DNA of 12,094 nucleotides from a virus (Duplodnaviria; Heunggongvirae; Uroviricota; Caudoviricetes). The stretch spans positions 1 through 12,094 of the IMG/VR virus record IMGVR_UViG_2657245634_000013; one strand, given 5' to 3'. Every line of letters begins with the position of its first letter. The first letter of the stretch is position 1. The position numbers and the translations under genes were made by a program. Shown piece by piece: positions 1 to 12,094 of this stretch. The notes below the pieces were generated by a model. It ran no database searches and was not told where the DNA came from. It was given only the letters and a program-made list of their open reading frames with translations.

Positions 1-168
1 ATCATCGTAGTGAGCCAGTTGCCGGTGGAAAACTGGTACAAAATGATCGGAGACTCCACACATGCGGATGCCATCCTAGATCGACTGGTTCATGGCAGTA
101 TCAAGATCGAACTTAAAGGAGAATCAATGCGGAAAATACAATCTCCGTTGACCGAAGGAGATCAGTGA
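1..168 (+). CDS. IS21-family IstB-like helper ATPase, C-terminal fragment (5' end lies outside the window)
   Basis: Frame 1 is open from the window edge to TGA at 166-168 and translates to ...PVENWYKMIGDSTHADAILDRLVHGSIKIELKGESMRKIQSPLTEGDQ. The AILDRLxH ... KGESxR pattern is the conserved C-terminus of IstB proteins as I recall them. Not in the ORF track because it has no start codon in the window. Confidence 0.55.
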   Translation: MIVVSQLPVENWYKMIGDSTHADAILDRLVHGSIKIELKGESMRKIQSPLTEGDQ

Positions 169-253
169 AGGTAATTTAAAAACGGTTCTGTGAAAGTGAC
201 ACGAACCGATCTCCATCGATGTTACTCACCGATCTCCTTCACGGTAATACGCA
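1..253 (+). mobile_element. Right end of an IS21-family insertion sequence (istB 3' end plus terminal region); the exact terminus is uncertain, roughly 240-260
   Basis: IstB-like C-terminus followed by a non-coding stretch with the motif CCGATCTCC repeated directly at 215-223 and 232-240. Multiple subterminal repeats are typical of IS21-family ends. The terminus itself cannot be fixed without a reference copy. Confidence 0.4.
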
Positions 254-262
254 TTTTTCCCT

Positions 263-658
263 GTGGAGCTTAAAATCGCTTATCAGGAATCCGGCGAATG
301 GCCCGATGATGGAATCGAAATTGACGACACTGTTGCCGCCGAATTTATGAAGGAAGCACCAGAAGGAAAATACAGAGGTGTCATCGACGGAATGCCTGCA
401 TGGATTGATATTCCACCGCCAACTCATGAGGAACAAATTGCCGCAGCCGAACTGGAAAAGCAGCAATTGATTAATCAGGTCAACGAATACATAAACAGTA
501 AGCAATGGCCTGGTAAAGCGGCGATTGGTCGCCTGAAAGGTGAGGAACTGGCGCAATATAATTTGTGGCTGGATTATCTGGACACACTGGAACTGGTCGA
601 TACTTCCGGTGCGCCAGATATTGAATGGCCTACGCCTTCGGCAGTTCAGGCCAGATGA
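263..658 (+). pseudogene. Phage tail fibre assembly protein (Tfa/U-like chaperone), apparently 5'-truncated
   Basis: Translation ends ...LDTLELVDTSGAPDIEWPTPSAVQAR, the typical Tfa C-terminal motif (DTS.APD..WP). The frame opens only at 248 just after a TAA; the first possible start is a GTG at 263 with no RBS. The product is shorter (131 aa) than the neighbouring 185-aa Tfa and sits right against the IS end. Confidence 0.6.
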
Positions 659-1187
659 CATCCGGCGCAGTGCTGGTATCTGTTACCGTCACCGCGTCAA
701 TATAATCCAGCACGGCGTTAAGTCGGGTTGTTTCTGCCTGCGTCAGCTTCCGCCCGGCCTGTAATTTCAGTTGAATCAGACTGATGGAAGCCATTGCAGC
801 ATCAATCAGCGACTGGCGCTGTGCTTCTGCCGCGTCTAGTGCGGCACTATGCTGTGCCTCAGTATCTGTCATCCATTTCTCACCATCCCATTTATCGTAT
901 GGCGTTAACGGTGAAAGCGTGACATAACCGTCTTTGATGGCACCGATATAATCCACTGTAACAGCTACGCCATTTTCGATTGAGTAAACAGTCTCATTGC
1001 GGTGGTCTTCTTCATGGCTCCATCCCTTACCCGTAAATACTGCCACTTTCCCCGGAATGTATTCGCCCGGGTCAATACCAGTGGAACAGGCGGGCATACT
1101 TACGCCAGTATTAATATATTCATCAGACCAGCCCGAATATTCAGACGTTACTGCATCATAATAAAAACAACGCATATCACCCGGCAC
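630..1187 (-). CDS. Phage tail fibre assembly protein (alternative Tfa/U'-like chaperone of the invertible segment)
   Basis: 185-aa ORF ending ...LDYIDAVTVTDTSTAPDVIWPELPKA (Tfa C-terminal motif). It lies immediately downstream of the minus-strand tail-fibre exon and overlaps the plus-strand tfa convergently at 630-658. Start is GTG at 1187 or ATG at 1175. Confidence 0.75.
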   Translation of the reverse strand: MPGDMRCFYYDAVTSEYSGWSDEYINTGVSMPACSTGIDPGEYIPGKVAVFTGKGWSHEEDHRNETVYSIENGVAVTVDYIGAIKDGYVTLSPLTPYDKWDGEKWMTDTEAQHSAALDAAEAQRQSLIDAAMASISLIQLKLQAGRKLTQAETTRLNAVLDYIDAVTVTDTSTAPDVIWPELPKA

Positions 1188-1223
1188 TGTAGCCAGCCCA
1201 TTTTCATCAAAAAACAGGTTTCA

Positions 1224-1730
1224 TTATGCAGCCCTCACAATATAATTAAAGGCGATGTTACGTGGACGGTTTTCATTAGCTGTTGGCACGACACGAGAGG
1301 CGTCGAATCCAAGGTCATCGGTTTTGCCTATATCAGTTGTGTTATTCGGCATTCTCGCAGATCGTGTTCCTGCATCATAAAAAGCCCCTCTGATTGCATC
1401 AAAAGACATACCGATCCCGCCATCTGCGAATCCCTCAATATTTCTTATTGCATCCCCCTGTGAAGATAATAATTGTCGCCCGGCATCCACTCCACGTCCG
1501 TCATCCCAGCCACGAATAAATTCACCGCGTAAATCAGGCAATTTATTTGTCGGATAAACCTTTGCCAGTTCCGGGTATTCTTCAGCAGAAAAAGCCGCAC
1601 CGTTGCATTTCAGCCAGCCAGTAGGCGGTGTGGCTGAAGGCCACGGAACAGGCACACCAACGGGTAATGCCGAACCTTCTCCCAAACCAACGTTTATGAA
1701 AATGCAGAGATAACGGCTAACTGGCATCAT
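1224..1730 (-). CDS. Tail-fibre variable C-terminal exon (Mu S'v / P2 H C-terminus-like), silent orientation; the real tail-fibre portion is about 1224-1675
   Basis: Contains PVGVPVPWPSATPPTGWLKCNGAAFSAEEYPELAKVYPTNKLPDLRG and the C-terminal ...NIAFNYIVRAA, both characteristic of P2 H / Mu S variable domains. The first ~18 codons lie outside the crossover site and the frame is closed by TAA just upstream, as expected for the non-expressed copy of an invertible tail-fibre gene. Confidence 0.8.
   Translation of the reverse strand: MMPVSRYLCIFINVGLGEGSALPVGVPVPWPSATPPTGWLKCNGAAFSAEEYPELAKVYPTNKLPDLRGEFIRGWDDGRGVDAGRQLLSSQGDAIRNIEGFADGGIGMSFDAIRGAFYDAGTRSARMPNNTTDIGKTDDLGFDASRVVPTANENRPRNIAFNYIVRAA
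1676..1701. other. Putative DNA-invertase crossover site (gix/hix/pix-like)
   Basis: TTCTCCCAAACC-AA-CGTTTATGAAAA: two imperfectly inverted 12-bp half-sites around a 2-bp core, similar to hixL TTCTTGAAAACC-AA-GGTTTTTGATAA and gix TTATCCAAAACC-TC-GGTTTACAGGAA (quoted from memory). It sits at the constant/variable boundary of the tail-fibre exon and next to the invertase gene. Confidence 0.55.
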
Positions 1731-1757
1731 CTCCGGTTTTTATTCAGGGGGATGATC

Positions 1758-2351
1758 ATGCTTATTGGCTATGTACGCGTGTCAACAAATGACCAGAACA
1801 CGGAATTGCAGAGTAATGCGCTGGAGTGTGCAGGATGTGAGCTGATTTTTGAGGATAAAATCAGCGGCTCGAAGTCCGACAGGCCGGGGCTGAAAAAACT
1901 GCTCAGGACACTATCGGCAGGAGACACGTTGGTTGTCTGGAAGCTGGACAGACTGGGGCGCAGTATGCGGCATCTCGTTACGCTGATAGAAGAGTTGCGC
2001 CAGCGTGGTGTGAATTTCAGAAGCCTGACTGACAGTATTGATACCAGTACCCCAATGGGCCGTTTCTTTTTTCATGTCATGGGTGCCCTGGCTGAAATGG
2101 AGCGAGAACTCATTGTCGAGCGGACACGCGCAGGACTGGAAGCGGCCAGAGCCAAAGGTCGTATTGGTGGCAGACGACCGAAACTCACCGCGAGAGAGTG
2201 GGAGCAGGCAGGACGGTTGCTGGCTGCGGGGGAATCTCGTCAACGTGTGGCGCTGATTTTTGATATTGGCCTGTCCACGCTCTATAAAAAATTCCCCTCA
2301 TCAGCGACAAAGAATAAATTGTGTCATCCCTTAGCCAACCGGGACAAATAG
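1758..2351 (+). CDS. Serine DNA invertase of the Gin/Hin/Pin/Cin family
   Basis: MLIGYVRVSTNDQNTELQ...VVWKLDRLGRSMRHL...MGRFFFHVMGALAEMERELIVERT...GRIGGRRPKL...STLYKKFP: resolvase/invertase catalytic N-terminus with the catalytic Ser in VRVSTNDQ and a C-terminal HTH; closely resembles e14 Pin as recalled. The ATG at 1758 is preferred over 1752 because AGGGGG at 1744-1749 gives better RBS spacing. Confidence 0.9.
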   Translation: MLIGYVRVSTNDQNTELQSNALECAGCELIFEDKISGSKSDRPGLKKLLRTLSAGDTLVVWKLDRLGRSMRHLVTLIEELRQRGVNFRSLTDSIDTSTPMGRFFFHVMGALAEMERELIVERTRAGLEAARAKGRIGGRRPKLTAREWEQAGRLLAAGESRQRVALIFDIGLSTLYKKFPSSATKNKLCHPLANRDK

Positions 2352-2380
2352 CCTGACATCTCCGGCACAACTGAAAATAC
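2321..2380 (+). promoter_or_regulatory. Possible Ogr-dependent P2-type late promoter for the FI-FII-E-T-U-D operon
   Basis: TGT(2323-2325)-N12-AAC partial dyad about 50 bp upstream of a -10-like GAAAAT (2374-2379), 30 bp before the FI start. This resembles the P2 late-promoter architecture (TGT-N12-ACA centred near -55) but the match is imperfect. Confidence 0.25.
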
Positions 2381-2410
2381 CACTCACCCATTAACCACGG
2401 AGTTAAACGG

Positions 2411-3601
2411 ATGAGTGACTATCATCACGGCGTGCAGGTGCTGGAGATTAACGACGGCACCCGCGTCATTTCCACCGTATCCACTGCCATTGTCGGCATG
2501 GTCTGCACGGCCAGCGATGCGGATGCGGAAATCTTCCCCCTCAATAAACCGGTGCTGATCACCAATGTGCAGAGCGCGATTGCAAAGGCCGGTAAAAAAG
2601 GCACGCTGGCGGCATCGTTGCAGGCCATCGCTGACCAGTCAAAACCGGTCACCGTTGTCGTGCGCGTGGAAGACGGCACCGGCGACGACGAAGAAACGAA
2701 ACTCGCGCAGACCGTTTCCAATATCATCGGCACCACTGACGAAAACGGTCAGTACACCGGACTGAAAGCCCTGCTGGCGGCGGAGTCGGTTACCGGTGTT
2801 AAACCGCGTATTCTCGGTGTGCCGGGACTGGACACCAAAGAGGTGGCGGTTGCACTGGCATCAGTCTGTCAGAAGCTGCGCGCTTTCGGGTATATCAGCG
2901 CATGGGGCTGTAAAACCATTTCCGAGGTGAAAGCCTACCGCCAGAATTTCAGCCAGCGTGAGCTGATGGTCATCTGGCCGGATTTCCTCGCATGGGATAC
3001 GGTCGCCAGTACCACCGCCACCGCGTATGCCACCGCCCGTGCGCTGGGCCTGCGCGCTAAAATCGACCAGGAGCAGGGCTGGCATAAAACGCTGTCCAAC
3101 GTCGGGGTAAACGGTGTTACCGGCATCAGTGCCTCTGTATTCTGGGATTTGCAGGAGTCCGGCACCGATGCTGACCTGTTGAACGAGTCAGGTGTCACAA
3201 CGCTGATTCGCCGTGACGGTTTCCGATTCTGGGGTAACCGTACCTGCTCTGATGACCCGCTGTTCCTCTTTGAAAACTACACCCGCACCGCGCAGGTGCT
3301 GGCCGACACGATGGCTGAGGCGCACATGTGGGCGGTGGACAAGCCCATCACCGCAACGCTGATTCGCGACATCGTTGACGGCATCAATGCCAAATTTCGT
3401 GAGCTGAAAACAAACGGCTATATCGTGGATGCGACCTGCTGGTTCAGCGAAGAATCCAACGATGCGGAAACCCTTAAGGCCGGAAAACTGTATATCGACT
3501 ACGACTATACCCCGGTTCCTCCTCTTGAAAACCTGACCCTGCGCCAGCGTATTACCGATAAATACCTGGCAAATCTGGTCACCTCGGTTAACAGCAATTA
3601 A
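2411..3601 (+). CDS. FI: Contractile tail sheath protein (P2 gpFI)
   Basis: 396-aa ORF beginning MSDYHHGVQVLEINDGTRVISTVSTAIVGMVCTASDADAE..., essentially matching P2 FI as recalled; same length as P2 FI; GGAG RBS at 2400-2403. Confidence 0.95.
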   Translation: MSDYHHGVQVLEINDGTRVISTVSTAIVGMVCTASDADAEIFPLNKPVLITNVQSAIAKAGKKGTLAASLQAIADQSKPVTVVVRVEDGTGDDEETKLAQTVSNIIGTTDENGQYTGLKALLAAESVTGVKPRILGVPGLDTKEVAVALASVCQKLRAFGYISAWGCKTISEVKAYRQNFSQRELMVIWPDFLAWDTVASTTATAYATARALGLRAKIDQEQGWHKTLSNVGVNGVTGISASVFWDLQESGTDADLLNESGVTTLIRRDGFRFWGNRTCSDDPLFLFENYTRTAQVLADTMAEAHMWAVDKPITATLIRDIVDGINAKFRELKTNGYIVDATCWFSEESNDAETLKAGKLYIDYDYTPVPPLENLTLRQRITDKYLANLVTSVNSN

Positions 3602-3613
3602 GGAGCCTGACCG

Positions 3614-4132
3614 ATGGCAATGCCGCGCAAACTCAAGTTAATGAACGTCTTTCTGAACGGCTACAGCTATCAGGGCGTTGCAAAGTCCGTCACGCTGCCA
3701 AAACTGACCCGTAAACTCGAAAACTATCGCGGTGCGGGGATGAACGGAAGCGCACCGGTAGACCTCGGCCTTGATGACGATGCGCTGTCAATGGAGTGGT
3801 CGCTCGGGGGCTTCCCGGATTCGGTTATCTGGGAGCTTTACGCCGCAACCGGCGTGGATGCCGTACCGATTCGTTTTGCAGGCTCTTACCAGCGCGACGA
3901 TACCGGCGAAACGGTAGCCGTTGAAGTGGTCATGCGTGGACGTCAGAAAGAAATCGACACCGGCGAGGGTAAACAGGGAGAAGACACCGAGTCGAAAATC
4001 TCCGTAGTCTGCACCTATTTCCGGCTGACGATGGACGGTAAGGAGCTGGTCGAAATCGACACCATCAACATGATTGAGAAGGTGAACGGCGTCGACCGGC
4101 TGGAGCAACACCGCCGCAATATCGGCCTGTAA
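3614..4132 (+). CDS. FII: Tail tube protein (P2 gpFII)
   Basis: 172-aa ORF MAMPRKLKLMNVFLNGYSYQGVAKSVTLPKLTRKLENYRGAG... directly after the sheath gene; AAGGAG RBS at 3599-3604; length equals P2 FII. Confidence 0.95.
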   Translation: MAMPRKLKLMNVFLNGYSYQGVAKSVTLPKLTRKLENYRGAGMNGSAPVDLGLDDDALSMEWSLGGFPDSVIWELYAATGVDAVPIRFAGSYQRDDTGETVAVEVVMRGRQKEIDTGEGKQGEDTESKISVVCTYFRLTMDGKELVEIDTINMIEKVNGVDRLEQHRRNIGL

Positions 4133-4188
4133 TTTTCATCCGGTCAGTCAGGCTGACCGGTTAACCCCGATTCAGAAGTGAGAAAACC

Positions 4189-4464
4189 ATGAACAAAGAA
4201 AATGTCATTACCCTGGACAATCCGGTCAAACGTGGTGAGCAGGTTATCGAACAGGTCACGCTGATGAAACCCAATGCCGGGACGCTGCGCGGTGTCAGTC
4301 TGGCAGCGGTCGCGAACTCCGAAGTCGATGCACTGATTAAGGTGCTGCCGCGCATGACGGCACCGATGCTGACCGAGCAGGAAGTCGCCGCGCTGGAACT
4401 GCCTGACCTTGTGGCGCTGGCCGGTAAGGTGGTCGGTTTTTTGTCGCCGAACTCGGTGCAGTGA
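4189..4464 (+). CDS. E: Tail assembly chaperone (P2 gpE)
   Basis: 91-aa ORF MNKENVITLDNPVKRGEQVIEQVTLMKPNAG... in the position and size of P2 E; contains the TTTTTTG slippery heptamer near its 3' end. Confidence 0.9.
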   Translation: MNKENVITLDNPVKRGEQVIEQVTLMKPNAGTLRGVSLAAVANSEVDALIKVLPRMTAPMLTEQEVAALELPDLVALAGKVVGFLSPNSVQ

Positions 4465-4616
4465 CGTTTCCAAAAAATCTCTCGGTCGATGACCTGATGG
4501 CGGATGTGGCAGTGATATTTCACTGGCCGCCATCAGAACTGTATCCCATGAGCCTGACCGAACTCATCACATGGCGCGAAAAGGCGCTCCGGCGAAGCGG
4601 AAACACGAATGAGTAA
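4189..4616 (+). CDS. Tail assembly chaperone frameshift product (P2 gpE+E'), made by -1 ribosomal frameshift at T_TTT_TTG (4437-4443)
   Basis: After a -1 slip at 4437-4443 the new frame stays open and reads ...FVAELGAVTFPKNLSVDDLMADVAVIFHWPPSELYPMSLTELITWREKALRRSGNTNE, ending at TAA 4614-4616 and overlapping the T start. This is the conserved E/E' (lambda G/GT-type) arrangement. Confidence 0.8.
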
Positions 4617-7056
4617 CAATGTAAAATTACAGGTATTGCTCAGGGCTGTTGACCAGGCATCCCGCCCGTTTAAATCCATCCGCACAGCGAGTAAGTCGCT
4701 GTCGGGGGATATCCGGGAAACACAAAAATCACTGCGCGAGCTGAACGGTCAGGCATCCCGTATTGAGGGATTCCGCAAGACCAGTGCACAGCTCGCCGTG
4801 ACTGGTCATGCACTTGAAAAGGCACGGCAGGAGGCCGAAGCCCTTGCCACACAGTTTAAAAATACCGAACGTCCGACCCGTGCTCAGGCGAAAGTGCTGG
4901 AATCCGCAAAGCGTGCGGCGGAGGACTTACAGGCGAAATATAACCGCCTGACGGATTCCGTTAAACGCCAGCAGCGGGAACTGGCCGCTGTGGGAATTAA
5001 TGCCCGCAATCTTGCACATGATGAGCAGGGACTGAAAAACCGTATCAGTGAAACCACCGCACAACTTAACCGTCAGCGCGACGCGCTGGCGCGTGTCAGT
5101 GCGCAACAGGCAAAACTTAACGCAGTAAAACAGCGTTATCAGGCCGGAAAGGAACTGGCCGGAAATATGGCCTCAGTAGGCGCTGCCGGTGTGGGGATTG
5201 CGGCGGCGGGAACGATGGCCGGAGTTAAGTTGCTGATGCCCGGTTATGAGTTTGCGCAGAAAAACTCAGAATTGCAGGCCGTGCTAGGTGTGGCAAAAGA
5301 CTCCGCCGAAATGGCTGCACTACGCAAGCAGGCGCGCCAGCTCGGCGACAACACCGCCGCCTCGGCGGATGATGCTGCCGGTGCACAGATTATTATCGCG
5401 AAAGCCGGTGGGGATGTTGATGCCATTCAGGCGGCAACGCCGGTCACGCTGAATATGGCGCTGGCGAACCGTCGCACGATGGAAGAAAACGCCGCCCTGC
5501 TGATGGGGATGAAATCCGCCTTTCAGCTTTCAAACGATAAGGTCGCTCATATCGGGGATGTTCTCTCCATGACGATGAACAAAACCGCCGCCGATTTTGA
5601 CGGCATGAGCGATGCGCTGACCTATGCCGCACCTGTGGCAAAAAATGCCGGTGTCAGCATTGAAGAAACCGCCGCAATGGTCGGGGCGCTGTATGATGCA
5701 AAAATCACAGGCTCAATGGCGGGGACGGGAAGCCGTGCCGTGTTAAGCCGCCTGCAGGCACCGACGGGAAAAGCATGGGATGCACTCAAAGAGCTTGGAG
5801 TGAAAACCTCAGACAGCAAGGGAAACACCCGACCAGTATTTACCATTCTGAAAGAAATGCAGGCCAGTTTTGAGAAAAACCGGCTCGGTACTGCCCAGCA
5901 GGCTGAATACATGAAAACTATTTTCGGGGAGGAGGCCAGCTCAGCCGCCGCCGTGCTGATGACTGCCGCCTCAACCGGAAAGCTGGACAAACTGACCGCT
6001 GCGTTTAAAGCCTCAGACGGGAAGACCGCCGAGCTGGTAAATATCATGCAGGACAACCTCGGCGGTGACTTTAAAGAGTTTCAGTCCGCTTATGAGGCGG
6101 TGGGGACTGACCTGTTTGACCAGCAGGAAGGCGCACTGCGTAAGCTCACGCAGACGGCCACAAAGTATGTGTTAAAACTCGACGGCTGGATACAGAAAAA
6201 CAAATCACTGGCGTCAACCATCGGCATCATTGTCGGTGGTGCACTGGCACTGATTGGTGTCATCGGTGCCATTGGCCTCGTAGCCTGGCCGGTTATCACC
6301 GGCATCAATGCCATCATCGCGGCAGCAGGCGCAATGGGGGCAGTCTTCACGACGGTTGGCAGTGCTGTTATGACCGCCATCGGGGCTATTAGCTGGCCGG
6401 TTGTGGCCGTGGTGGCCGCAATTGTCGCCGGGGCGTTGCTTATCCGTAAATACTGGGAGCCTGTCAGCACATTCTTTGGCGGTGTGGTGGAAGGGCTGAA
6501 AGCGGCATTTGCGCCGGTGGGGGAACTGTTCACGCCACTTAAGCCGGTGTTTGACTGGCTGGGCGAAAAGTTACAGGCCGCGTGGCAGTGGTTTAAAAAC
6601 CTGATCGCCCCGGTTAAAGCCATCCAGGACACCCTGAACCGTTGCCGTGACACGGGCGTCATGTTCGGGCAGGCACTGGCTGACGCGTTGATGCTGCCGC
6701 TTAATGCGTTCAACAAACTGCGCAGTGGTATTGACTGGGTACTGGAAAAACTCGGTGTTATCAACAAAGAGTCAGACACACTTGACCAGACCGCCGCCAG
6801 AACTCATGCCGCCACGTATGGCACCGGTGGTTATATTCCGGCGACCAGCTCTTATGCAGGCTATCAGGCTTATCAGCCGGTTACGGCACCGGCTGGCCGC
6901 TCTTATGTGGACCAGAGTAAAAACGAATATCACATCAGTCTGACGGGCGGTACTGCGCCGGGGACTCAGCTCGACCGCCAGTTACAGGATGCGCTCGAAA
7001 AATACGAGCGGGATAAACGTGCGCGCGCCCGTGCCAGCATGATGCATGACGGTTAA
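4609..7056 (+). CDS. T: Tail tape measure protein (P2 gpT)
   Basis: 815-aa ORF with an N-terminal coiled-coil-rich region and a long Gly/Ala-rich hydrophobic segment (aa about 530-600), typical of tape measure proteins. Same length and position as P2 T. Confidence 0.95.
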   Translation: MSNNVKLQVLLRAVDQASRPFKSIRTASKSLSGDIRETQKSLRELNGQASRIEGFRKTSAQLAVTGHALEKARQEAEALATQFKNTERPTRAQAKVLESAKRAAEDLQAKYNRLTDSVKRQQRELAAVGINARNLAHDEQGLKNRISETTAQLNRQRDALARVSAQQAKLNAVKQRYQAGKELAGNMASVGAAGVGIAAAGTMAGVKLLMPGYEFAQKNSELQAVLGVAKDSAEMAALRKQARQLGDNTAASADDAAGAQIIIAKAGGDVDAIQAATPVTLNMALANRRTMEENAALLMGMKSAFQLSNDKVAHIGDVLSMTMNKTAADFDGMSDALTYAAPVAKNAGVSIEETAAMVGALYDAKITGSMAGTGSRAVLSRLQAPTGKAWDALKELGVKTSDSKGNTRPVFTILKEMQASFEKNRLGTAQQAEYMKTIFGEEASSAAAVLMTAASTGKLDKLTAAFKASDGKTAELVNIMQDNLGGDFKEFQSAYEAVGTDLFDQQEGALRKLTQTATKYVLKLDGWIQKNKSLASTIGIIVGGALALIGVIGAIGLVAWPVITGINAIIAAAGAMGAVFTTVGSAVMTAIGAISWPVVAVVAAIVAGALLIRKYWEPVSTFFGGVVEGLKAAFAPVGELFTPLKPVFDWLGEKLQAAWQWFKNLIAPVKAIQDTLNRCRDTGVMFGQALADALMLPLNAFNKLRSGIDWVLEKLGVINKESDTLDQTAARTHAATYGTGGYIPATSSYAGYQAYQPVTAPAGRSYVDQSKNEYHISLTGGTAPGTQLDRQLQDALEKYERDKRARARASMMHDG

Positions 7057-7070
7057 GGAGGTGACGAAAA

Positions 7071-7550
7071 ATGATGCTCGCGTTAGGTATGTTTGTTTTT
7101 ATGCGCCAGACGCTGCCACACCAGACCATGCAGCGTGAATCAGATTATCGCTGGCCGTCAAATTCCCGTATCGGTAAACGGGATGCCTTTCAGTTTCTCG
7201 GTGTTGGCGAGGAAAACATCACGCTTGCCGGTGTGCTTTATCCCGAACTGACCGGCGGAAAGCTGACGATGACCACGCTCAGGCTGATGGCAGAGGAAGG
7301 CCGGGCGTGGCCGTTGCTGGATGGCACAGGCATGATTTACGGCATGTATGTCATCAGCAGGGTGAGTGAAACAGGGAGTATTTTCTTTGCAGACGGCACA
7401 CCCCGGAAAATTGATTTTACGCTGTCGCTCACCCGCGTGGATGAATCACTGGCCGCGCTTTATGGCGATATCGGTAAACAGGCGGAGTCGCTCATCGGTA
7501 AAGCTGGCAGTATGGCGACCAGATTCACGGGTATGACGGGGGCGGGATAA
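7071..7550 (+). CDS. U: Tail protein (P2 gpU)
   Basis: 159-aa ORF after T with AAGGAGG RBS at 7055-7061; its stop overlaps the D start (TAATG), indicating translational coupling. Length and order as in P2. Confidence 0.9.
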   Translation: MMLALGMFVFMRQTLPHQTMQRESDYRWPSNSRIGKRDAFQFLGVGEENITLAGVLYPELTGGKLTMTTLRLMAEEGRAWPLLDGTGMIYGMYVISRVSETGSIFFADGTPRKIDFTLSLTRVDESLAALYGDIGKQAESLIGKAGSMATRFTGMTGAG

Positions 7551-8713
7551 TGCTGGATGCACTGACATTTGATGCAGGCAGTACGCTGACGCCGGATTAC
7601 ATGCTGATGCTCGACAGCAGGGATATTACCGGCAATATCAGCGACCGTCTGATGAGTATGACCCTGACGGATAGCCGGGGCTTTGAGGCTGACCAGCTTG
7701 ATATTGAACTGAACGATGCCGACGGGCAGGTCGGGCTGCCGGTTCGTGGTGCTGTTCTGACGGTGTATATCGGCTGGAAAGGTTTTGCCCTGGTATGCAA
7801 AGGGAAATTCACCGTTGATGAGGTTGAACACCGGGGCGCGCCGGATGTTGTCACCATCCGCGCCCGGAGTGCAGATTTTCGCGGGACGCTCAATTCCCGC
7901 CGTGAAGGCTCATGGCATGACACCACGCTCGGTGCGATTGTTGAGGCGATAGCCTCCCGTAACAGGCTGAAAGCCAGTGTCGCTCCGTCACTGGCCGGAA
8001 TTAAAATCCCGCACATCGACCAGTCGCAGGAGTCTGATGCGAAATTCCTGACCCGTCTTGCAGAACGCAACGGCGGTGAGGTGTCGGTAAAAATGGGAAA
8101 ACTGTTGTTTCTCAAAGCGGGGCAGGGGGTGACGGCCAGCGGTAAAAAAATCCCGCAGATTACCATCACCCGCAGCGACGGCGACCGCCATCATTTTGCG
8201 ATTGCTGACCGTGGAGCCTATACCGGCGTAACGGCAAAGTGGTTACACACCAAAGACCCGAAGCCGCAAAAGCAGAAGGTAAAACTGAAACGCAAAAAGA
8301 AAGAAAAACACCTGCGCGCACTGGAGCACCCGAAAGCAAAACCGGTCAGGCAGAAGAAAGCGCCAAAAGTACCGGAAGCGCGCGAAGGTGAATACATGGC
8401 CGGTGAGGCTGACAACGTTTTTGCCCTGACCACGGTATATGCCACGAAAGCACAGGCCATGCGTGCCGCTCAGGCGAAGTGGGATAAACTGCAACGGGGC
8501 GTTGCGGAGTTCTCCATCAGCCTGGCTACCGGTCGTGCAGATATTTACACGGAAACACCGGTCAGAGTGTCAGGCTTTAAGCGCGTCATAGACGAGCAGG
8601 ACTGGACCATCACTAAGGTGACACATTTTCTGAATAATAGCGGCTTCACGACGTCCTTAGAGCTTGAGGTCAGGCTTTCTGATGTGGAGTACGAAACAGA
8701 AGATGATGAGTGA
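7550..8713 (+). CDS. D: Tail protein D (P2 gpD, late control gene D)
   Basis: 387-aa ORF MLDALTFDAGSTLTPDYMLMLDSRDITGNISDRLMSMTLTDSRGFEADQLDIELNDADG... with a Lys-rich linker; length and position as in P2 D. Confidence 0.95.
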   Translation: MLDALTFDAGSTLTPDYMLMLDSRDITGNISDRLMSMTLTDSRGFEADQLDIELNDADGQVGLPVRGAVLTVYIGWKGFALVCKGKFTVDEVEHRGAPDVVTIRARSADFRGTLNSRREGSWHDTTLGAIVEAIASRNRLKASVAPSLAGIKIPHIDQSQESDAKFLTRLAERNGGEVSVKMGKLLFLKAGQGVTASGKKIPQITITRSDGDRHHFAIADRGAYTGVTAKWLHTKDPKPQKQKVKLKRKKKEKHLRALEHPKAKPVRQKKAPKVPEAREGEYMAGEADNVFALTTVYATKAQAMRAAQAKWDKLQRGVAEFSISLATGRADIYTETPVRVSGFKRVIDEQDWTITKVTHFLNNSGFTTSLELEVRLSDVEYETEDDE

Positions 8714-8794
8714 CGTTTTTATTTTATCTATTTGTTTTATAAGGATAAATTAACTAAAATGGCACCATCAACAAAACCGGAAGAGGTGCTCGCG

Positions 8795-9013
8795 ATGTTT
8801 CATTGTCCTTTATGCCAGCATGCCGCACATGCGCGTACAAGCCGCTATATCACTGACACGACAAAAGAGCGTTATCATCAGTGCCAGAACGTGAATTGCA
8901 GTGCCACGTTCATCACTTATGAGTCGGTACAGCGATACATCGTGAAGCCGGGAGAAGTCCACGCCGTAAGGCCGCACCCGTTGCCGTCAGGGCAGCAAAT
9001 TATGTGGATGTGA
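8795..9013 (+). CDS. ogr: Late gene transcriptional activator Ogr (zinc-finger)
   Basis: 72-aa product MFHCPLCQHAAHARTSRYITDTTKERYHQCQNVNCSATFITYESVQRYIVKPGEVHAVRPHPLPSGQQIMWM with the Cys-X2-Cys...Cys-X4-Cys zinc-binding motif. The ORF-track start at 8732 is an in-frame upstream extension; the ATG at 8795 gives the canonical 72-aa Ogr. Confidence 0.95.
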   Translation: MFHCPLCQHAAHARTSRYITDTTKERYHQCQNVNCSATFITYESVQRYIVKPGEVHAVRPHPLPSGQQIMWM

Positions 9014-9023
9014 TCACAAAAAT

Positions 9024-9050
9024 AGCCCCTCAGTTGAGGGGCTTTATTTA
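9024..9050 (+). terminator. Rho-independent terminator downstream of ogr
   Basis: Stem AGCCCCTC / GAGGGGCT with loop AGTT, followed by TTTATTTA, starting 11 bp after the ogr stop. Confidence 0.7.
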
Positions 9051-9056
9051 TGGTCG

Positions 9057-9075
9057 ATGTGGACGTTATGTGGAC
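9057..9075 (+). repeat. Tandem direct repeat ATGTGGAC-gtt-ATGTGGAC (11-bp spacing); candidate integrase arm-type binding sites in the prophage att arm
   Basis: Exact 8-bp repeat at 9057-9064 and 9068-9075, in non-coding DNA between the last phage gene and host sequence. Confidence 0.45.
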
Positions 9076-9081
9076 AGTGGT

Positions 9082-9103
9082 TGATATAAATCCATTTATA
9101 TCA
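9082..9103. repeat. Perfect 10-bp inverted repeat TGATATAAAT-cc-ATTTATATCA in the att region
   Basis: Exact palindrome read directly from the sequence; AT-rich; lies between the direct repeats and the host-like terminator. Confidence 0.6.
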
Positions 9104-9111
9104 TCAGGTTA

Positions 9112-9168
9112 GGTGCTTTTTTGTGACACCATCCCTGTCTTCCCCCACATGATGTGGGGGTTTTTTTT
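9112..9168 (+). ncRNA. Possible CpxQ-like sRNA remnant (3' UTR of cpxP); 5' boundary uncertain
   Basis: Terminator hairpin plus upstream GACACCATCCCTGTCTTCCCCC, recalled as the conserved part of CpxQ; no cpxP coding sequence is visible upstream, consistent with the prophage junction lying at the cpxP 3' end. This is from memory and unverified. Confidence 0.35.
9142..9168 (+). terminator. Rho-independent terminator, probably the host cpxP terminator (3' end of the CpxQ sRNA region)
   Basis: Stem CCCCCACAT / ATGTGGGGG followed by eight T residues. The preceding GACACCATCCCTGTCTTCCCCC matches my recollection of the cpxP 3' UTR / CpxQ, and fieF lies directly downstream as in the E. coli cpxP-fieF arrangement. 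Confidence 0.6.
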
Positions 9169-9249
9169 ATCCTCAATTTGCCTGCTGCTTAATGCATTGC
9201 AGATGATTTGCTTCCGTTATACTAGCGTCAGTTGATAGCGGGAGTATTT

Positions 9250-9867
9250 ATGAATCAATCTTATGGACGGCTGGTCAGTCGGGCGGCGATTGCTGCGACG
9301 GCGATGGCTTCGTTGCTATTGCTGATTAAAATTTTTGCATGGTGGTATACCGGGTCGGTGAGTATTCTCGCCGCGCTGGTGGATTCGCTGGTGGATATCG
9401 GCGCGTCGTTGACGAATTTACTGGTGGTGCGATATTCCCTGCAACCTGCCGACGATAATCACTCGTTTGGTCACGGTAAAGCAGAGTCCCTCGCGGCGCT
9501 GGCGCAAAGTATGTTTATCTCCGGTTCGGCACTATTCCTGTTTTTGACGGGTATTCAACATCTGATATCTCCAACACCGATGACAGATCCAGGCGTCGGG
9601 GTTATCGTGACAATTGTGGCGCTAATTTGTACGATTATCCTTGTCTCGTTTCAGCGTTGGGTGGTGCGCCGGACGCAAAGCCAGGCGGTGCGGGCTGATA
9701 TGCTACATTACCAGTCTGATGTTATGATGAACGGCGCAATTCTGCTGGCGCTGGGGTTGTCCTGGTACGGCTGGCATCGCGCCGATGCTCTGTTTGCATT
9801 GGGAATCGGCATCTATATTTTATATAGCGCGTTACGCATGGGATATGAGGCGGTACAGTCATTACTG
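9250..9867 (+). pseudogene. fieF: Cation-diffusion-facilitator ferrous iron/zinc efflux protein FieF (YiiP), 3'-truncated after about codon 206
   Basis: [86 protein letters not shown]... matches FieF up to ...[10 protein letters not shown]; GGAG RBS at 9242-9245. After about 9867 the frame continues only as antisense read-through of the autotransporter gene, and the cytoplasmic C-terminal domain (expected DRALPDEERQ...) is absent. Confidence 0.85.
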
Positions 9868-12063
9868 GCTGTGACCATTCATATCCAGTTCAGTCTCTGC
9901 CGCCAGACGCAGTTCATGGGTATTACCCAACACGTTATCGTTATTCAACAAAAGCGTCCCACTGCGCAGATCGGTAACACCGGTATAGTCGTTGTCTTTG
10001 TTAGAAAGCGATACGGTCTGACCCTTCTGGCTGCTGAATGCCAGGTCACCACTGCCGGTAATCTTTGCGCTGAGATCGGCGGCATTCTCGCTTTTACCGT
10101 TAGAGCTCAGCACCAGAGCATCGCTGTCGGTAGCGTGTAAATCAAGCTGGGTCAGGCCGTAACCGATATACAGACCGTCATTGTTTACCCCACTCGTCAG
10201 ACGATAGTCGTAAGTGCCGACGGCCGCTTTTTGCCCATTCTGCTGAATATCACGTTGGGCACTGCTGGAGAGGATTTGCCCATTTTTATCCTGCAATTGC
10301 AGATTGCCCGCATCGCCCAGAACTTCCGCACCTTGCGCATCAACCAACTTAATGGTGCTGTTACCATCATCGACTTCAGTGAGCGATAACGCAGAGTCAA
10401 TATCACGAGATACTGAGCTTACAACGTCACTGTCAGAAACCTGAATCACACCCTCGCCGCGCAAATCCAGCGTTTTACTAACGTTGACCGTCCCTTCTGT
10501 CATCTGTGCACCTGCTGTCAGGGCACCAAAATCAACGGTTCCGCCGGAGAATCCCAAAGTGCTAATGGAGTGAGCGCCCTTACCCACTATTACCTGGCTT
10601 CCCTGACCCGCAGTGATCCCGCCTCTCTGCAGAAACTCAGCATTCTTTTCCAGGTTAAATGTCGTGTTCTGGAACGCCAGTGAACCCTGGAACCAGTCTG
10701 TATAAGCAAACTCATCGAAGGAGAATTCGTGATTCCCCATGTTTATTTCAACAATACCTCTACCTTGAAGATCGTTATCAAATACCCAATCTTTATTGGC
10801 ATTGATTTGCAGTTTGCCATCAACATCCAGGTCCGCACGGCCGATGTTCTTGTCTTCAGAAATAACCGCGACAGCACCAGAAGCGACATCAATATATCCG
10901 CTGAATGCATAGTTATTGCCGGTCAGTGCCACTGTCCCACTGTCGATACTTATTGTACCATTGCCGGAAATCTTATTGGCAAAGGTCATGCTATCGTCAG
11001 CCTTCAGGTGTAATTTCCCGCGGTTGTTGATCTCTGCTGTACCTATATTTTGGGTGATCCCTAAAGCGCCATTTTGCTCAATTTTGACTTTACCACTAAA
11101 GGCAGAGTTATCACCGGTTAAGTAAGTCGTGCCATTGAGCGCATTGATATAGCCCAGGCCCTCGCTGCCACTGACAATATCCGCGGAAATAGTCGCGTTT
11201 TTATCCGTGTGGTTTAAGGTGATTTTCTTATCGGATGTCTTTGCCCACACAAACTCAATTTTTTCGGCATCAATAATCCCTGCAGCCTTCGCAGCACTTC
11301 CTTCCTGTGCACCTAACGCTAACTCAGAGTTGGTGCTTAAACTAATTTTCGGTGCGGATATTTTACCTCCATCTGATACGACTAATGTTGTATCAGAACG
11401 TTGGTCGTAATAACCCAGGCTAATATGTTCACGAGCATTAACTTCACCGCCGTTATTAACTGACAGGTACTGATTACCACCGTAACTGCCGTAAACGCCC
11501 ATAAAGAAGGTTTTAGAATTTACCTGGCTGCCTTCACCACTGACATTTCCCTGCAAATAGGTCAGACGGCTGGTGCCCTTAACATGGATTTTGCCGCCGT
11601 TGGAGACATTAAAATAGCCGCGATCGTGTCTCATGCCTGAGTTTGACTCATACAAATCATCAGCATATAACTCGCTGCCAGCATTGGAGACATTCAGGAA
11701 CCCCGTACCTTTCAGCAAAAAGTTAAGTGGGCCATTGATAGTTACCTTTCCTCCGGTAATATCCAACCCACCACCAGAAGCGAGAGTCAGACGCGGACGG
11801 GAAGTATCTGTCGCATTGATTACCAGATTGGCATTGTCAGTCACCGTAATACGGTAATCGATGCTCTGGTTCTCTTTGCCAAAATCAATAGTTTTATCCT
11901 GGTTTACGATGACATCATCGGCGAATACCAGAGATGAATATAAACTTATCGCGCTAATTAAAACAGCCCGGGACTTTTTTCCTTTTACTCTGCTCCCCAG
12001 CTCCGAGCAGACGCTCCAACAGTTACGGGACCTGTTCCACTTTAGCCGATATATTTTATTCAT
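9862..12063 (-). pseudogene. Autotransporter adhesin (type Va), signal peptide plus beta-helical passenger domain, 3'-truncated (no beta-barrel translocator)
   Basis: N-terminus MNKIYRLKWNRSRNCWSVCSELGSRVKGKKS... is an extended signal peptide region (ESPR) typical of autotransporters, followed by a Gly/Asn/Ser/Thr-rich repetitive passenger (GNxxxSG-type beta-helix repeats). The ORF ends ...ELDMNGHSQ with its stop codon supplied by fieF-derived sequence at 9862-9864. Lower GC than the flanking sequence. The likely start is the ATG at 12061-12063, not the track start at 12087. Confidence 0.75.
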
Positions 12064-12094
12064 CACAATCTCCAGCAATACATCCAAATAAAAC

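What the first reader, a model, noticed from the sequence alone, without database searches (positions are those of the whole stretch)
1..262. IS21-family element inserted into the tail-fibre switch, likely disabling the prophage tail fibre
An IstB-like C-terminus and a repeat-bearing IS end abut a tail-fibre assembly gene that lacks its 5' end. The constant N-terminal part of the tail-fibre gene, the first variable exon and the left crossover site, which must lie left of the invertible segment, are not present in the window. The prophage tail module is otherwise intact and P2-like, so this looks like IS-mediated inactivation of host-range determinants.
Basis: partly seen in the sequence, partly recalled or inferred. 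Interest (0 to 1): 0.45.

Follow-up and report, generated by a model that had tools for sequence, protein, structure and literature searches.

The report
ISEc12 inside prophage tail-fibre inversion switch
A common E. coli insertion sequence (ISEc12) has landed in one of the two alternative tail-fibre helper genes of a P2-like prophage, inside a DNA segment that still flips, so this is ordinary prophage decay and not loss of the tail-fibre gene or its switch.

Summary
Window 1-253 is 100% identical to the last 253 bp of complete 2,581-bp ISEc12 copies (IS21 family): the istB 3' end at 1-168, then the repeat-bearing right end finishing in CA at 252-253. From 254 the sequence is a tail-fibre assembly gene (tfa) lacking exactly its first 36 nt.

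The window is a whole 12,094-bp draft contig that stops inside a multicopy IS, so the missing left half is a contig break and not evidence of deletion.

Sibling assemblies carry the identical IS|tfa junction. Two of them (L006, L008) switch from the window sequence to the constant part of the fibre gene exactly at the centre of the 26-bp crossover site (window 1677-1702). L006 then gives a full 430-aa fibre gene followed by I, J, W and V. The IS therefore sits inside the Gin-type invertible segment, which inverted with the IS on board. The constant region and left crossover site exist.

The IS knocks out only the chaperone of one fibre variant. Separately, the other chaperone gene has a lineage-specific +1 frameshift. 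The left IS junction was not recovered.

Known elements, ordinary event, low interest.

The parts
1..168 (+). 3' end of ISEc12 istB (last 55 codons plus stop)
   Evidence: 100% identical to complete ISEc12 copies.
169..253 (+). ISEc12 right terminal region. Direct repeats ACCGATCTCC(A/T)TC lie at 205-217 and 228-240, and the terminal CA at 252-253.
   Evidence: Homology to three independent ISEc12 copies stops at 253 in three different flanks.
254..258 (+). TTTTT, the predicted right copy of a 5-bp target-site duplication. This is an inference; the left copy was not seen.
   Evidence: ISEc12 TSDs measured here are 5, 5 and 7 bp. A 5-bp TSD is reported in EC958 tssM (PMC10711316).
254..658 (+). 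5'-truncated tail-fibre assembly gene (codons 13-146 plus stop). It is the chaperone cognate to the gp53-like-C fibre variant.
   Evidence: PF02413 Caudo_TAP; identical to residues 13-146 of the intact Tfa in L011.
630..1224 (-). Second, convergent tail-fibre assembly gene (tfa', cognate to the Collar variant). It carries a +1 frameshift: A6 at 1209-1214 on the + strand where intact relatives have A5. A stop follows 5 codons and the residual ORF is 630-1175 (181 aa).
1224..1730 (-). Silent alternative C-terminal cassette of tail-fibre gene H (Hv', Collar domain). It is promoterless and not joined to the constant region in this orientation.
   Evidence: (PF07484 Collar).
1677..1702 (.). Right 26-bp crossover site TTCTCCCAAACCAACGTTTATGAAAA. 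The exchange point is after 1690.
   Evidence: L006 and L008 diverge from the window exactly at 1691, towards the constant part of H.
1758..2351 (+). Gin/Cin/Hin-family serine DNA invertase gene
   Evidence: Resolvase plus HTH_7. (phmmer E 7.3e-93 to PDB 3UJ3 'DNA-invertase' over residues 1-182).
2411..9013 (+). Context: full-length P2-type tail genes (sheath, tube, E, tape measure, U, D) and ogr, followed by the prophage end next to fieF.
   Evidence: 100% identical to IS-free relative L017 over window 1676-9868.

Best explanation
A 2,581-bp ISEc12 (IS21 family) transposed into codon 12/13 of one tfa gene of a P2-like prophage integrated next to fieF.

The target lies inside the roughly 1.83-kb Gin-type invertible segment, whose layout is Hc | Hv - tfa - tfa' - Hv' | invertase. 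The window is a draft contig that breaks in the IS because the IS is multicopy, so only the right junction is visible.

Consequences of the insertion:
- It removes the RBS, start codon and first 12 codons of the chaperone cognate to the gp53-like-C fibre variant.
- Fibre gene H, both crossover sites and the invertase remain intact.
- The enlarged segment (about 4.4 kb) still inverts, which is why sibling isolates show the IS-bearing segment in both orientations.

In the window's orientation (A), the expressed fibre Hc+Hv would lack its chaperone. In the other orientation (B), Hc+Hv' (430 aa) is expressed with tfa'. That gene carries an independent, older +1 frameshift at codon 5.

What is shown: the identity of the IS, the exact breakpoint, the position inside the segment, and inversion after insertion. 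What is inferred: a simple insertion with a 5-bp TSD, loss of chaperone function, and the effect on phage infectivity.
For: IS identity and terminus.

Breakpoint at 253/254 with 36 nt of tfa missing.

Empty site: the near-identical IS-free relative L017 is 100% identical over window 1676-9868 and has an intact 146-aa tfa.

Same junction in five assemblies.

Inversion with the IS on board:
- L006 is 100% identical to window 1-1690. It then continues into Hc, giving a 430-aa H identical to that of IS-free L010 and L012, followed by I, J, W and V.
- L008 shows the same switch point.
- L023, from the same assembly as L006, has the A-type junction. This points to a culture mixed for orientation.
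- Such mixtures are documented for P2-like prophage switches in clonal E. coli cultures (PMC4272514).

Invertase family.

Architecture of intact relatives in both orientations.

ISEc12 inserts independently into a related prophage (the tape measure gene in KOr024) and into tssM with a 5-bp TSD (PMC10711316).
Against: The left IS junction (tfa 5' end plus IS left end) was never seen.
- The predicted H(A) protein P0019 was not found on any contig of the IS-bearing assemblies.
- Pattern scans for the predicted left junction found nothing.
- The predicted fusion peptides are not in the protein collection.

These assemblies are very fragmented and contain chimeric joins. The negatives are therefore weak, and some caution about contig-level evidence is warranted.

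Loss of function of the truncated tfa and of the frameshifted tfa' is inferred, not measured.
Confidence: 0.85

Rival explanations
1. The IS marks a deletion or rearrangement boundary: the fibre constant region, first variable cassette and left crossover site were lost. The switch would then be dead and the fibre gene destroyed.
For: None of these features is in the window. The left junction and an intact H(A) gene were not recovered from the IS-bearing assemblies.
Against: L006 and L008 carry the identical IS|tfa junction, yet join Hv' to the constant region exactly at the crossover core. L006 has a complete H, I, J, W and V. That is only possible if both crossover sites and Hc were present after the insertion. 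A later deletion private to the window's isolate cannot be excluded.
Confidence: 0.07
2. The genome holds two related P2-like prophages. The A-type and B-type junctions would come from different copies, or from mis-resolved repeats, and not from inversion of a single IS-bearing segment.
For: L006 and L023 from one assembly show both junction types. Many E. coli carry several copies of these sequences, with a median of 2 places per genome.
Against: The window, L007 and L006 run without a break from the IS through about 1.4 kb of tfa/tfa'/Hv' into unique flanks. A two-copy repeat of that length would normally break short-read contigs. The minority junctions are only 235 bp (L023) and 55 bp (L008) long, which is read-sized, as expected for a subpopulation. 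Across assemblies, the same IS junction is linked either to the invertase or to Hc.
Confidence: 0.05
3. The IS|tfa junction is an assembly chimera, like other joins in these assemblies.
For: The same contig has a fieF|ehaA join with only 4 bp of overlap that sibling assemblies lack. The L008 tail is a mosaic that includes a 134-bp mhpE piece.
Against: The junction falls precisely at the last base of the IS (terminal CA). It is identical in five assemblies, including an independent Logan assembly. It is also linked to two different downstream contexts.
Confidence: 0.02

Closest known systems
ISEc12 (IS21 family) gene-disrupting insertions, e.g. tssM::ISEc12 in E. coli ST131 clade C (PMC10711316)
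   Same: The element is the same: 253/253 identity to complete copies over the visible end. The istB helper gene is present, and the mode is simple insertional disruption of a single gene. The expected TSD is 5 bp.
   Different: The target here is a prophage tail-fibre chaperone gene inside an invertible segment. The left junction and TSD were not observed.
Gin/Cin/Pin-type invertible tail-fibre segments (Mu G segment, P1 C segment, e14 P segment, P2-like prophage switches in EPEC, PMC4272514)
   Same: A serine invertase lies next to the segment. The 26-bp crossover sites are inverted, and one sits inside the fibre gene. Two convergent Hv-tfa cassettes are present, and both orientations are observed among isolates and probably within one culture.
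   Different: The segment carries a 2.6-kb IS passenger, growing from about 1.83 kb to a predicted 4.4 kb. From memory, that is about the size of the P1 C segment. One chaperone is truncated and the other frameshifted.
IS-free sister prophages at fieF (GCA_013358915.1, L017; KOr024, L004; GCA_039036505.1, L011)
   Same: L017 is 100% identical to the window over 8.2 kb. It has the same tape measure protein and the same T6 frameshift in tfa'.
   Different: L017 has an intact 146-aa tfa, which makes it the empty site. KOr024 has an independent ISEc12 insertion in the tape measure gene.

Membership tests
ISEc12 / IS21 family | IstB helper ATPase gene at the 3' side of the element | tested here: met
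   Only the C-terminal 55 residues are visible. NCBIfam IS21_help_AAA matches at E 6.6e-16, below the whole-protein cut-off because the sequence is a fragment. Pfam IstB_IS21 is on record. The DNA is 100% identical to annotated ISEc12 istB.
ISEc12 / IS21 family | Element terminus: terminal ...CA, multiple short terminal repeats, and identity to reference copies up to the last base | tested here: met
   Repeats lie at 205-217 and 228-240. Homology to three complete copies in different contexts ends at 253.
ISEc12 / IS21 family | istA transposase gene and left inverted repeat present, i.e. a complete element | not testable with these tools
   These lie outside the contig. Complete copies elsewhere are 2,581 bp with istA and istB.
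ISEc12 / IS21 family | Target-site duplication flanking the insertion | not testable with these tools
   The left junction was not recovered. TSDs of other copies are 5, 5 and 7 bp and 5 bp.
Gin/Cin/Hin-type invertible tail-fibre switch | Adjacent serine DNA invertase | tested here: met
   Window 1758-2351 has Resolvase plus HTH_7. E 7.3e-93 to PDB 3UJ3 and 4M6F 'DNA-invertase' over residues 1-182.
Gin/Cin/Hin-type invertible tail-fibre switch | Two 26-bp crossover sites in inverted orientation, one inside the fibre gene | tested here: met
   The right site is at window 1677-1702. In the intact relative L011 the left site is at 4089-4114, inside H, and the right site at 5920-5945. The left site of this isolate is outside the window, but its outer half is seen fused to Hv' in L006 and L008.
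Gin/Cin/Hin-type invertible tail-fibre switch | Both orientations occur, with the exchange at the site core | tested here: met
   The window and L007 are in orientation A. L006 and L008 are in orientation B, diverging exactly after window 1690. L023 is A-type and comes from the same assembly as L006.
Gin/Cin/Hin-type invertible tail-fibre switch | Fis-dependent recombinational enhancer | not tested
   No analysis was made.
Tail-fibre assembly protein (Caudo_TAP, P2 gpG / Mu U type) | Caudo_TAP domain, and a gene immediately downstream of the cognate fibre C-terminal cassette | tested here: met
   PF02413 is on record for both the 263-658 and 630-1175 products. Gene order in intact relatives is shown. 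NCBIfam has no model match.
P2-like tail module | Gene order sheath-tube-E-T-U-D-ogr with the matching Pfam families | tested here: met

The most novel reading that the evidence does not exclude
The IS may have turned a two-state host-range switch into an on/off switch for fibre assembly. In one orientation the fibre has no chaperone. In the other it would be assembled, provided the frameshifted tfa' still yields a working product by restarting at Met17. In addition, the IS is itself flipped relative to the chromosome at each inversion. Its read-through or outward transcription would then be phase-variable.
Probability: 0.06. Interest if true: 0.3.

Novelty: already known. Interest (0 to 1): 0.12.

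Why it matters
The finding matters little beyond strain-level annotation. It documents a lineage-specific ISEc12 insertion that could serve as a clonal marker. It also shows that a Gin-type segment tolerates a 2.6-kb passenger.

The main value is corrective. The apparent loss of the fibre gene and left crossover site is a contig-end effect, and the damage from the IS is limited to one chaperone gene.

Tried and rejected
Searches for the junction elsewhere
- Complete E. coli genomes: none of the 5,426 has the right junction.
- Exact 30-mer of the right junction in GTDB representative genomes and JGI metagenomes: 0 hits.
- Predicted left junction pattern allowing a 5-8 bp TSD: 0 hits.

Attempts to reach the left-junction contig by exact protein look-up
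- After a homology search, I showed that the lineage's predicted H(A) equals P0019. Its contigs are all from other strains.
- The 132-aa Hv ORF is also found only in other strains.
- Predicted tfa5'::IS fusion peptides for TSDs of 4, 5, 7 and 8 bp are not in the collection.
- Proteins I, J, W, V, S and the cargo protein are identical in most of the relatives fetched, so they would not single out this lineage.

Other checks
- An outward promoter from the IS end driving the truncated tfa was considered. No promoter-like site lies near 150-330, there is no SD before GTG 263, and the in-frame stop at 245-247 excludes a fusion.
- The ISEc12 left end is not an exact inverted copy of the right end.

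Full report
**1. What the window is**

An exact-protein look-up showed that the window is the complete contig CCBW01000016.1 (12,094 bp) of draft assembly GCA_000939035.1. It starts inside an insertion sequence. This is what short-read assemblers produce at multicopy repeats. ISEc12 right-end matches (window 1-262) occur at a median of 3 places in the E. coli genomes that have any.

**2. The observation**

*IstB fragment.* Window 1-168 translates to the C-terminal 55 residues of IstB.
- NCBIfam IS21_help_AAA matches profile positions 186-230 of 232 at E 6.6e-16.
- Pfam IstB_IS21 is on record for the called gene.
- RefSeq annotates the matching DNA as the ISEc12-family IstB.

*IS end.* I defined complete ISEc12 copies in three unrelated contexts:
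- next to an Ag43-family autotransporter gene (L002);
- on plasmid pSF-088-1 (L003);
- in the tape measure gene of a related prophage in strain KOr024 (L004).

Each copy is 2,581 bp, begins TGCGTATTTTCATG and ends ...CACGGTAATACGCA. Their target-site duplications are 7, 5 and 5 bp. The window's first 253 bp are identical at every position to the last 253 bp of all three copies. The end contains the direct repeats ACCGATCTCC(A/T)TC at 205-217 and 228-240. Homology to the three copies stops at 253.

*Truncated tfa.* From 254 the window follows a tail-fibre assembly gene.
- Translation of 254-658 is identical to residues 13-146 of the intact 146-aa Tfa of IS-free relatives.
- Exactly 36 nt are missing: the start codon, RBS context and 12 codons.
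- An in-frame stop at 245-247 excludes a fusion to IS sequence.
- No promoter-like site lies near the junction.

The IS ends at 253, not 262.

**3. Architecture of the locus**

Intact relatives show the following layout: V W J I, then H (a constant part Hc fused to a variable C-terminus), then tfa, then a convergent tfa' and a silent alternative C-terminal cassette, then a serine recombinase, then sheath, tube, E, T, U, D and ogr.

Two orientations occur in nature:
- Orientation A (L011, KOr024): H is 394 aa with a gp53-like C-terminus, followed by a 146-aa Tfa.
- Orientation B (L010, L012, strain 15A): H is 430 aa with a Collar-domain C-terminus, followed by a 197-aa Tfa'.

In L011 the 26-bp crossover sites lie at 4089-4114 (TTCTCGTATACCTTGGTTTGGGAGAA, inside H) and at 5920-5945 (TTCTCCCAAACCAACGTTTATGAAAA, next to the recombinase). 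The segment is therefore about 1.83 kb.

The window holds the right site at 1677-1702. The recombinase (1758-2351) matches the solved 'DNA-invertase' structures 3UJ3 and 4M6F at E 7e-93. From memory these are phage Mu Gin. This is a standard Gin/Cin/Pin-type tail-fibre host-range switch, in a P2-like prophage integrated next to fieF.

The window is in orientation A. The IS lies 38 bp downstream of where the H(A) stop codon would be, inside the invertible segment.

**4. Is the left half of the switch lost?**

Four other assemblies carry the identical junction: L006 (GCA_001373235.1), L007 (GCA_000946315.1), L008 (GCA_000946335.1) and L009 (Logan assembly of ERR738826).

- L007 is identical to the window throughout.
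- L006 is 100% identical to window 1-1690. From 1691, after the 14th base of the crossover site, it continues as ...GGTATACGAGAA plus the constant part of H.
- The resulting L006 gene encodes a 430-aa H that is identical, residue for residue, to H(B) of IS-free L010 and L012. It is followed by I, J, W, V, a cargo gene and S in the normal order.
- L008 switches at the same base.

This is the signature of site-specific inversion. The same IS-bearing DNA is joined to the invertase side in some isolates and to Hc in others. The inversion therefore took place after the IS inserted. That requires both crossover sites, Hc and an active invertase.

L023, from the same assembly as L006, carries the A-type junction preceded by only 235 bp of Hv'. 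This fits a culture mixed for orientation. Such mixtures are documented for P2-like prophage switches in clonal E. coli cultures (PMC4272514).

Their absence from the window is a contig-end effect.

**5. What the IS actually damages**

It damages one gene: the chaperone cognate to the gp53-like-C variant. In orientation A, the fibre Hc+Hv would be made without its Tfa. From established knowledge, P2 gpG and Mu U-type chaperones are needed for fibre assembly. The loss of function here is an inference.

In orientation B the IS lies downstream of the convergent tfa' and does not interrupt H(B) or tfa'.

I found a second, independent lesion, however. tfa' has a +1 frameshift: A6 at window 1209-1214 on the + strand, where L010, L011, L012 and 15A have A5. 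It gives a stop after 5 codons and leaves a 181-aa ORF starting at Met17.
- The allele is shared by all IS-bearing contigs that cover the site (the window, L006, L007, L008 and L009) and by L013/L017.
- L017 is the IS-free relative. It is 100% identical to the window over 8.2 kb, has an intact tfa, and so represents the empty site.
- The allele is absent from all 591 complete E. coli genomes that have this region. Their best match is 98.8%, i.e. the 1-nt gap.

The frameshift therefore predates the IS. If it is real and inactivating, both chaperones are compromised in this lineage, but only one of them by the IS.

**6. What could not be shown**

The left junction was not recovered.
- I predicted the lineage's H(A) (Hc from L006 plus Hv from L017) and found it equal to P0019. 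All of its contigs belong to other strains.
- The 132-aa Hv ORF gave the same result.
- Predicted tfa5'::IS fusion peptides are not in the protein collection.
- Pattern scans of the GTDB representatives and JGI metagenomes were empty for both junctions.
- No complete E. coli genome has this insertion.

The IS-bearing assemblies are highly fragmented and contain chimeric joins, so these negatives carry little weight. Examples of chimeric joins:
- The tail of L008 is a mosaic containing a 134-bp mhpE piece.
- The window itself joins fieF to the middle of ehaA at 9865-9868 with only 4 bp of overlap. Siblings L020 and L021 have the normal fieF-pfkA-sbp order.

A 5-bp TSD (TTTTT) is predicted from other ISEc12 copies (PMC10711316).

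**7. Comparison and novelty**

Every component is a known entity:
- ISEc12 at 100% identity;
- a Gin-family invertase switch;
- Caudo_TAP chaperones;
- a P2-like tail module.

IS disruption of prophage genes is commonplace. KOr024 even shows an independent ISEc12 hit in the tape measure gene of a sister prophage. The only mildly unusual aspect is that the IS rides inside a segment that keeps inverting. This enlarges it to a predicted 4.4 kb, comparable (from memory) to the P1 C segment.

The kind of event is already known and interest is low (0.12).

Noticed in passing
window 9865-9868: fieF is truncated after about codon 212 and joined, with only a 4-bp CTGG overlap, to the middle of the autotransporter gene ehaA. 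The window from 9865 to 12094 is 100% identical to ehaA, which lies at a distant locus in complete genomes. Sibling assemblies L020 and L021 have the normal fieF-pfkA-sbp order. The join is therefore most likely an assembly chimera, or otherwise a rearrangement private to this isolate.
   Followed up: partly
window 1209-1214 (A6 on + strand; tfa' codons 4-5 on - strand): A +1 frameshift in the second tail-fibre assembly gene. It is shared with the IS-free relative L013/L017 and absent from all 591 complete E. coli genomes that carry this region. It leaves a 181-aa ORF starting at Met17.
   Followed up: yes
L006 and L023 (both from GCA_001373235.1); L008 (GCA_000946335.1): Both orientations of the invertible segment appear within one assembly. 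The minority junction is represented by read-sized tips of 235 bp and 55 bp, which suggests ongoing inversion in the sequenced cultures.
   Followed up: partly
L008 1746-2031: After 55 bp of Hc, the contig continues into unrelated DNA that includes a 134-bp piece of mhpE. This shows that these draft assemblies contain chimeric concatenations.
   Followed up: partly
L004 11936-14516 (E. coli KOr024): An independent ISEc12 insertion, with the 5-bp TSD ACCAG, splits the tape measure gene of a sister P2-like prophage at the same fieF site.
   Followed up: partly
window 254-266; L003 3254-3266; L002 3754-3764: The DNA just right of three ISEc12 copies is similar: TTTTTCCCTGTGG, GTATTCCCTGTGG and GTTTTTCCCGG. 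This may hint at a target-site preference, or it may be coincidence. A fourth copy (L004, ACCAGCAGG) does not share it.
   Followed up: no
L017 2424-3494: In the IS-free relative GCA_013358915.1, the H(B) gene is itself frameshifted within the Collar cassette, giving a 356-aa ORF that ends ...SSQGMQ*. This is either a real lesion or a homopolymer error in that assembly.
   Followed up: no
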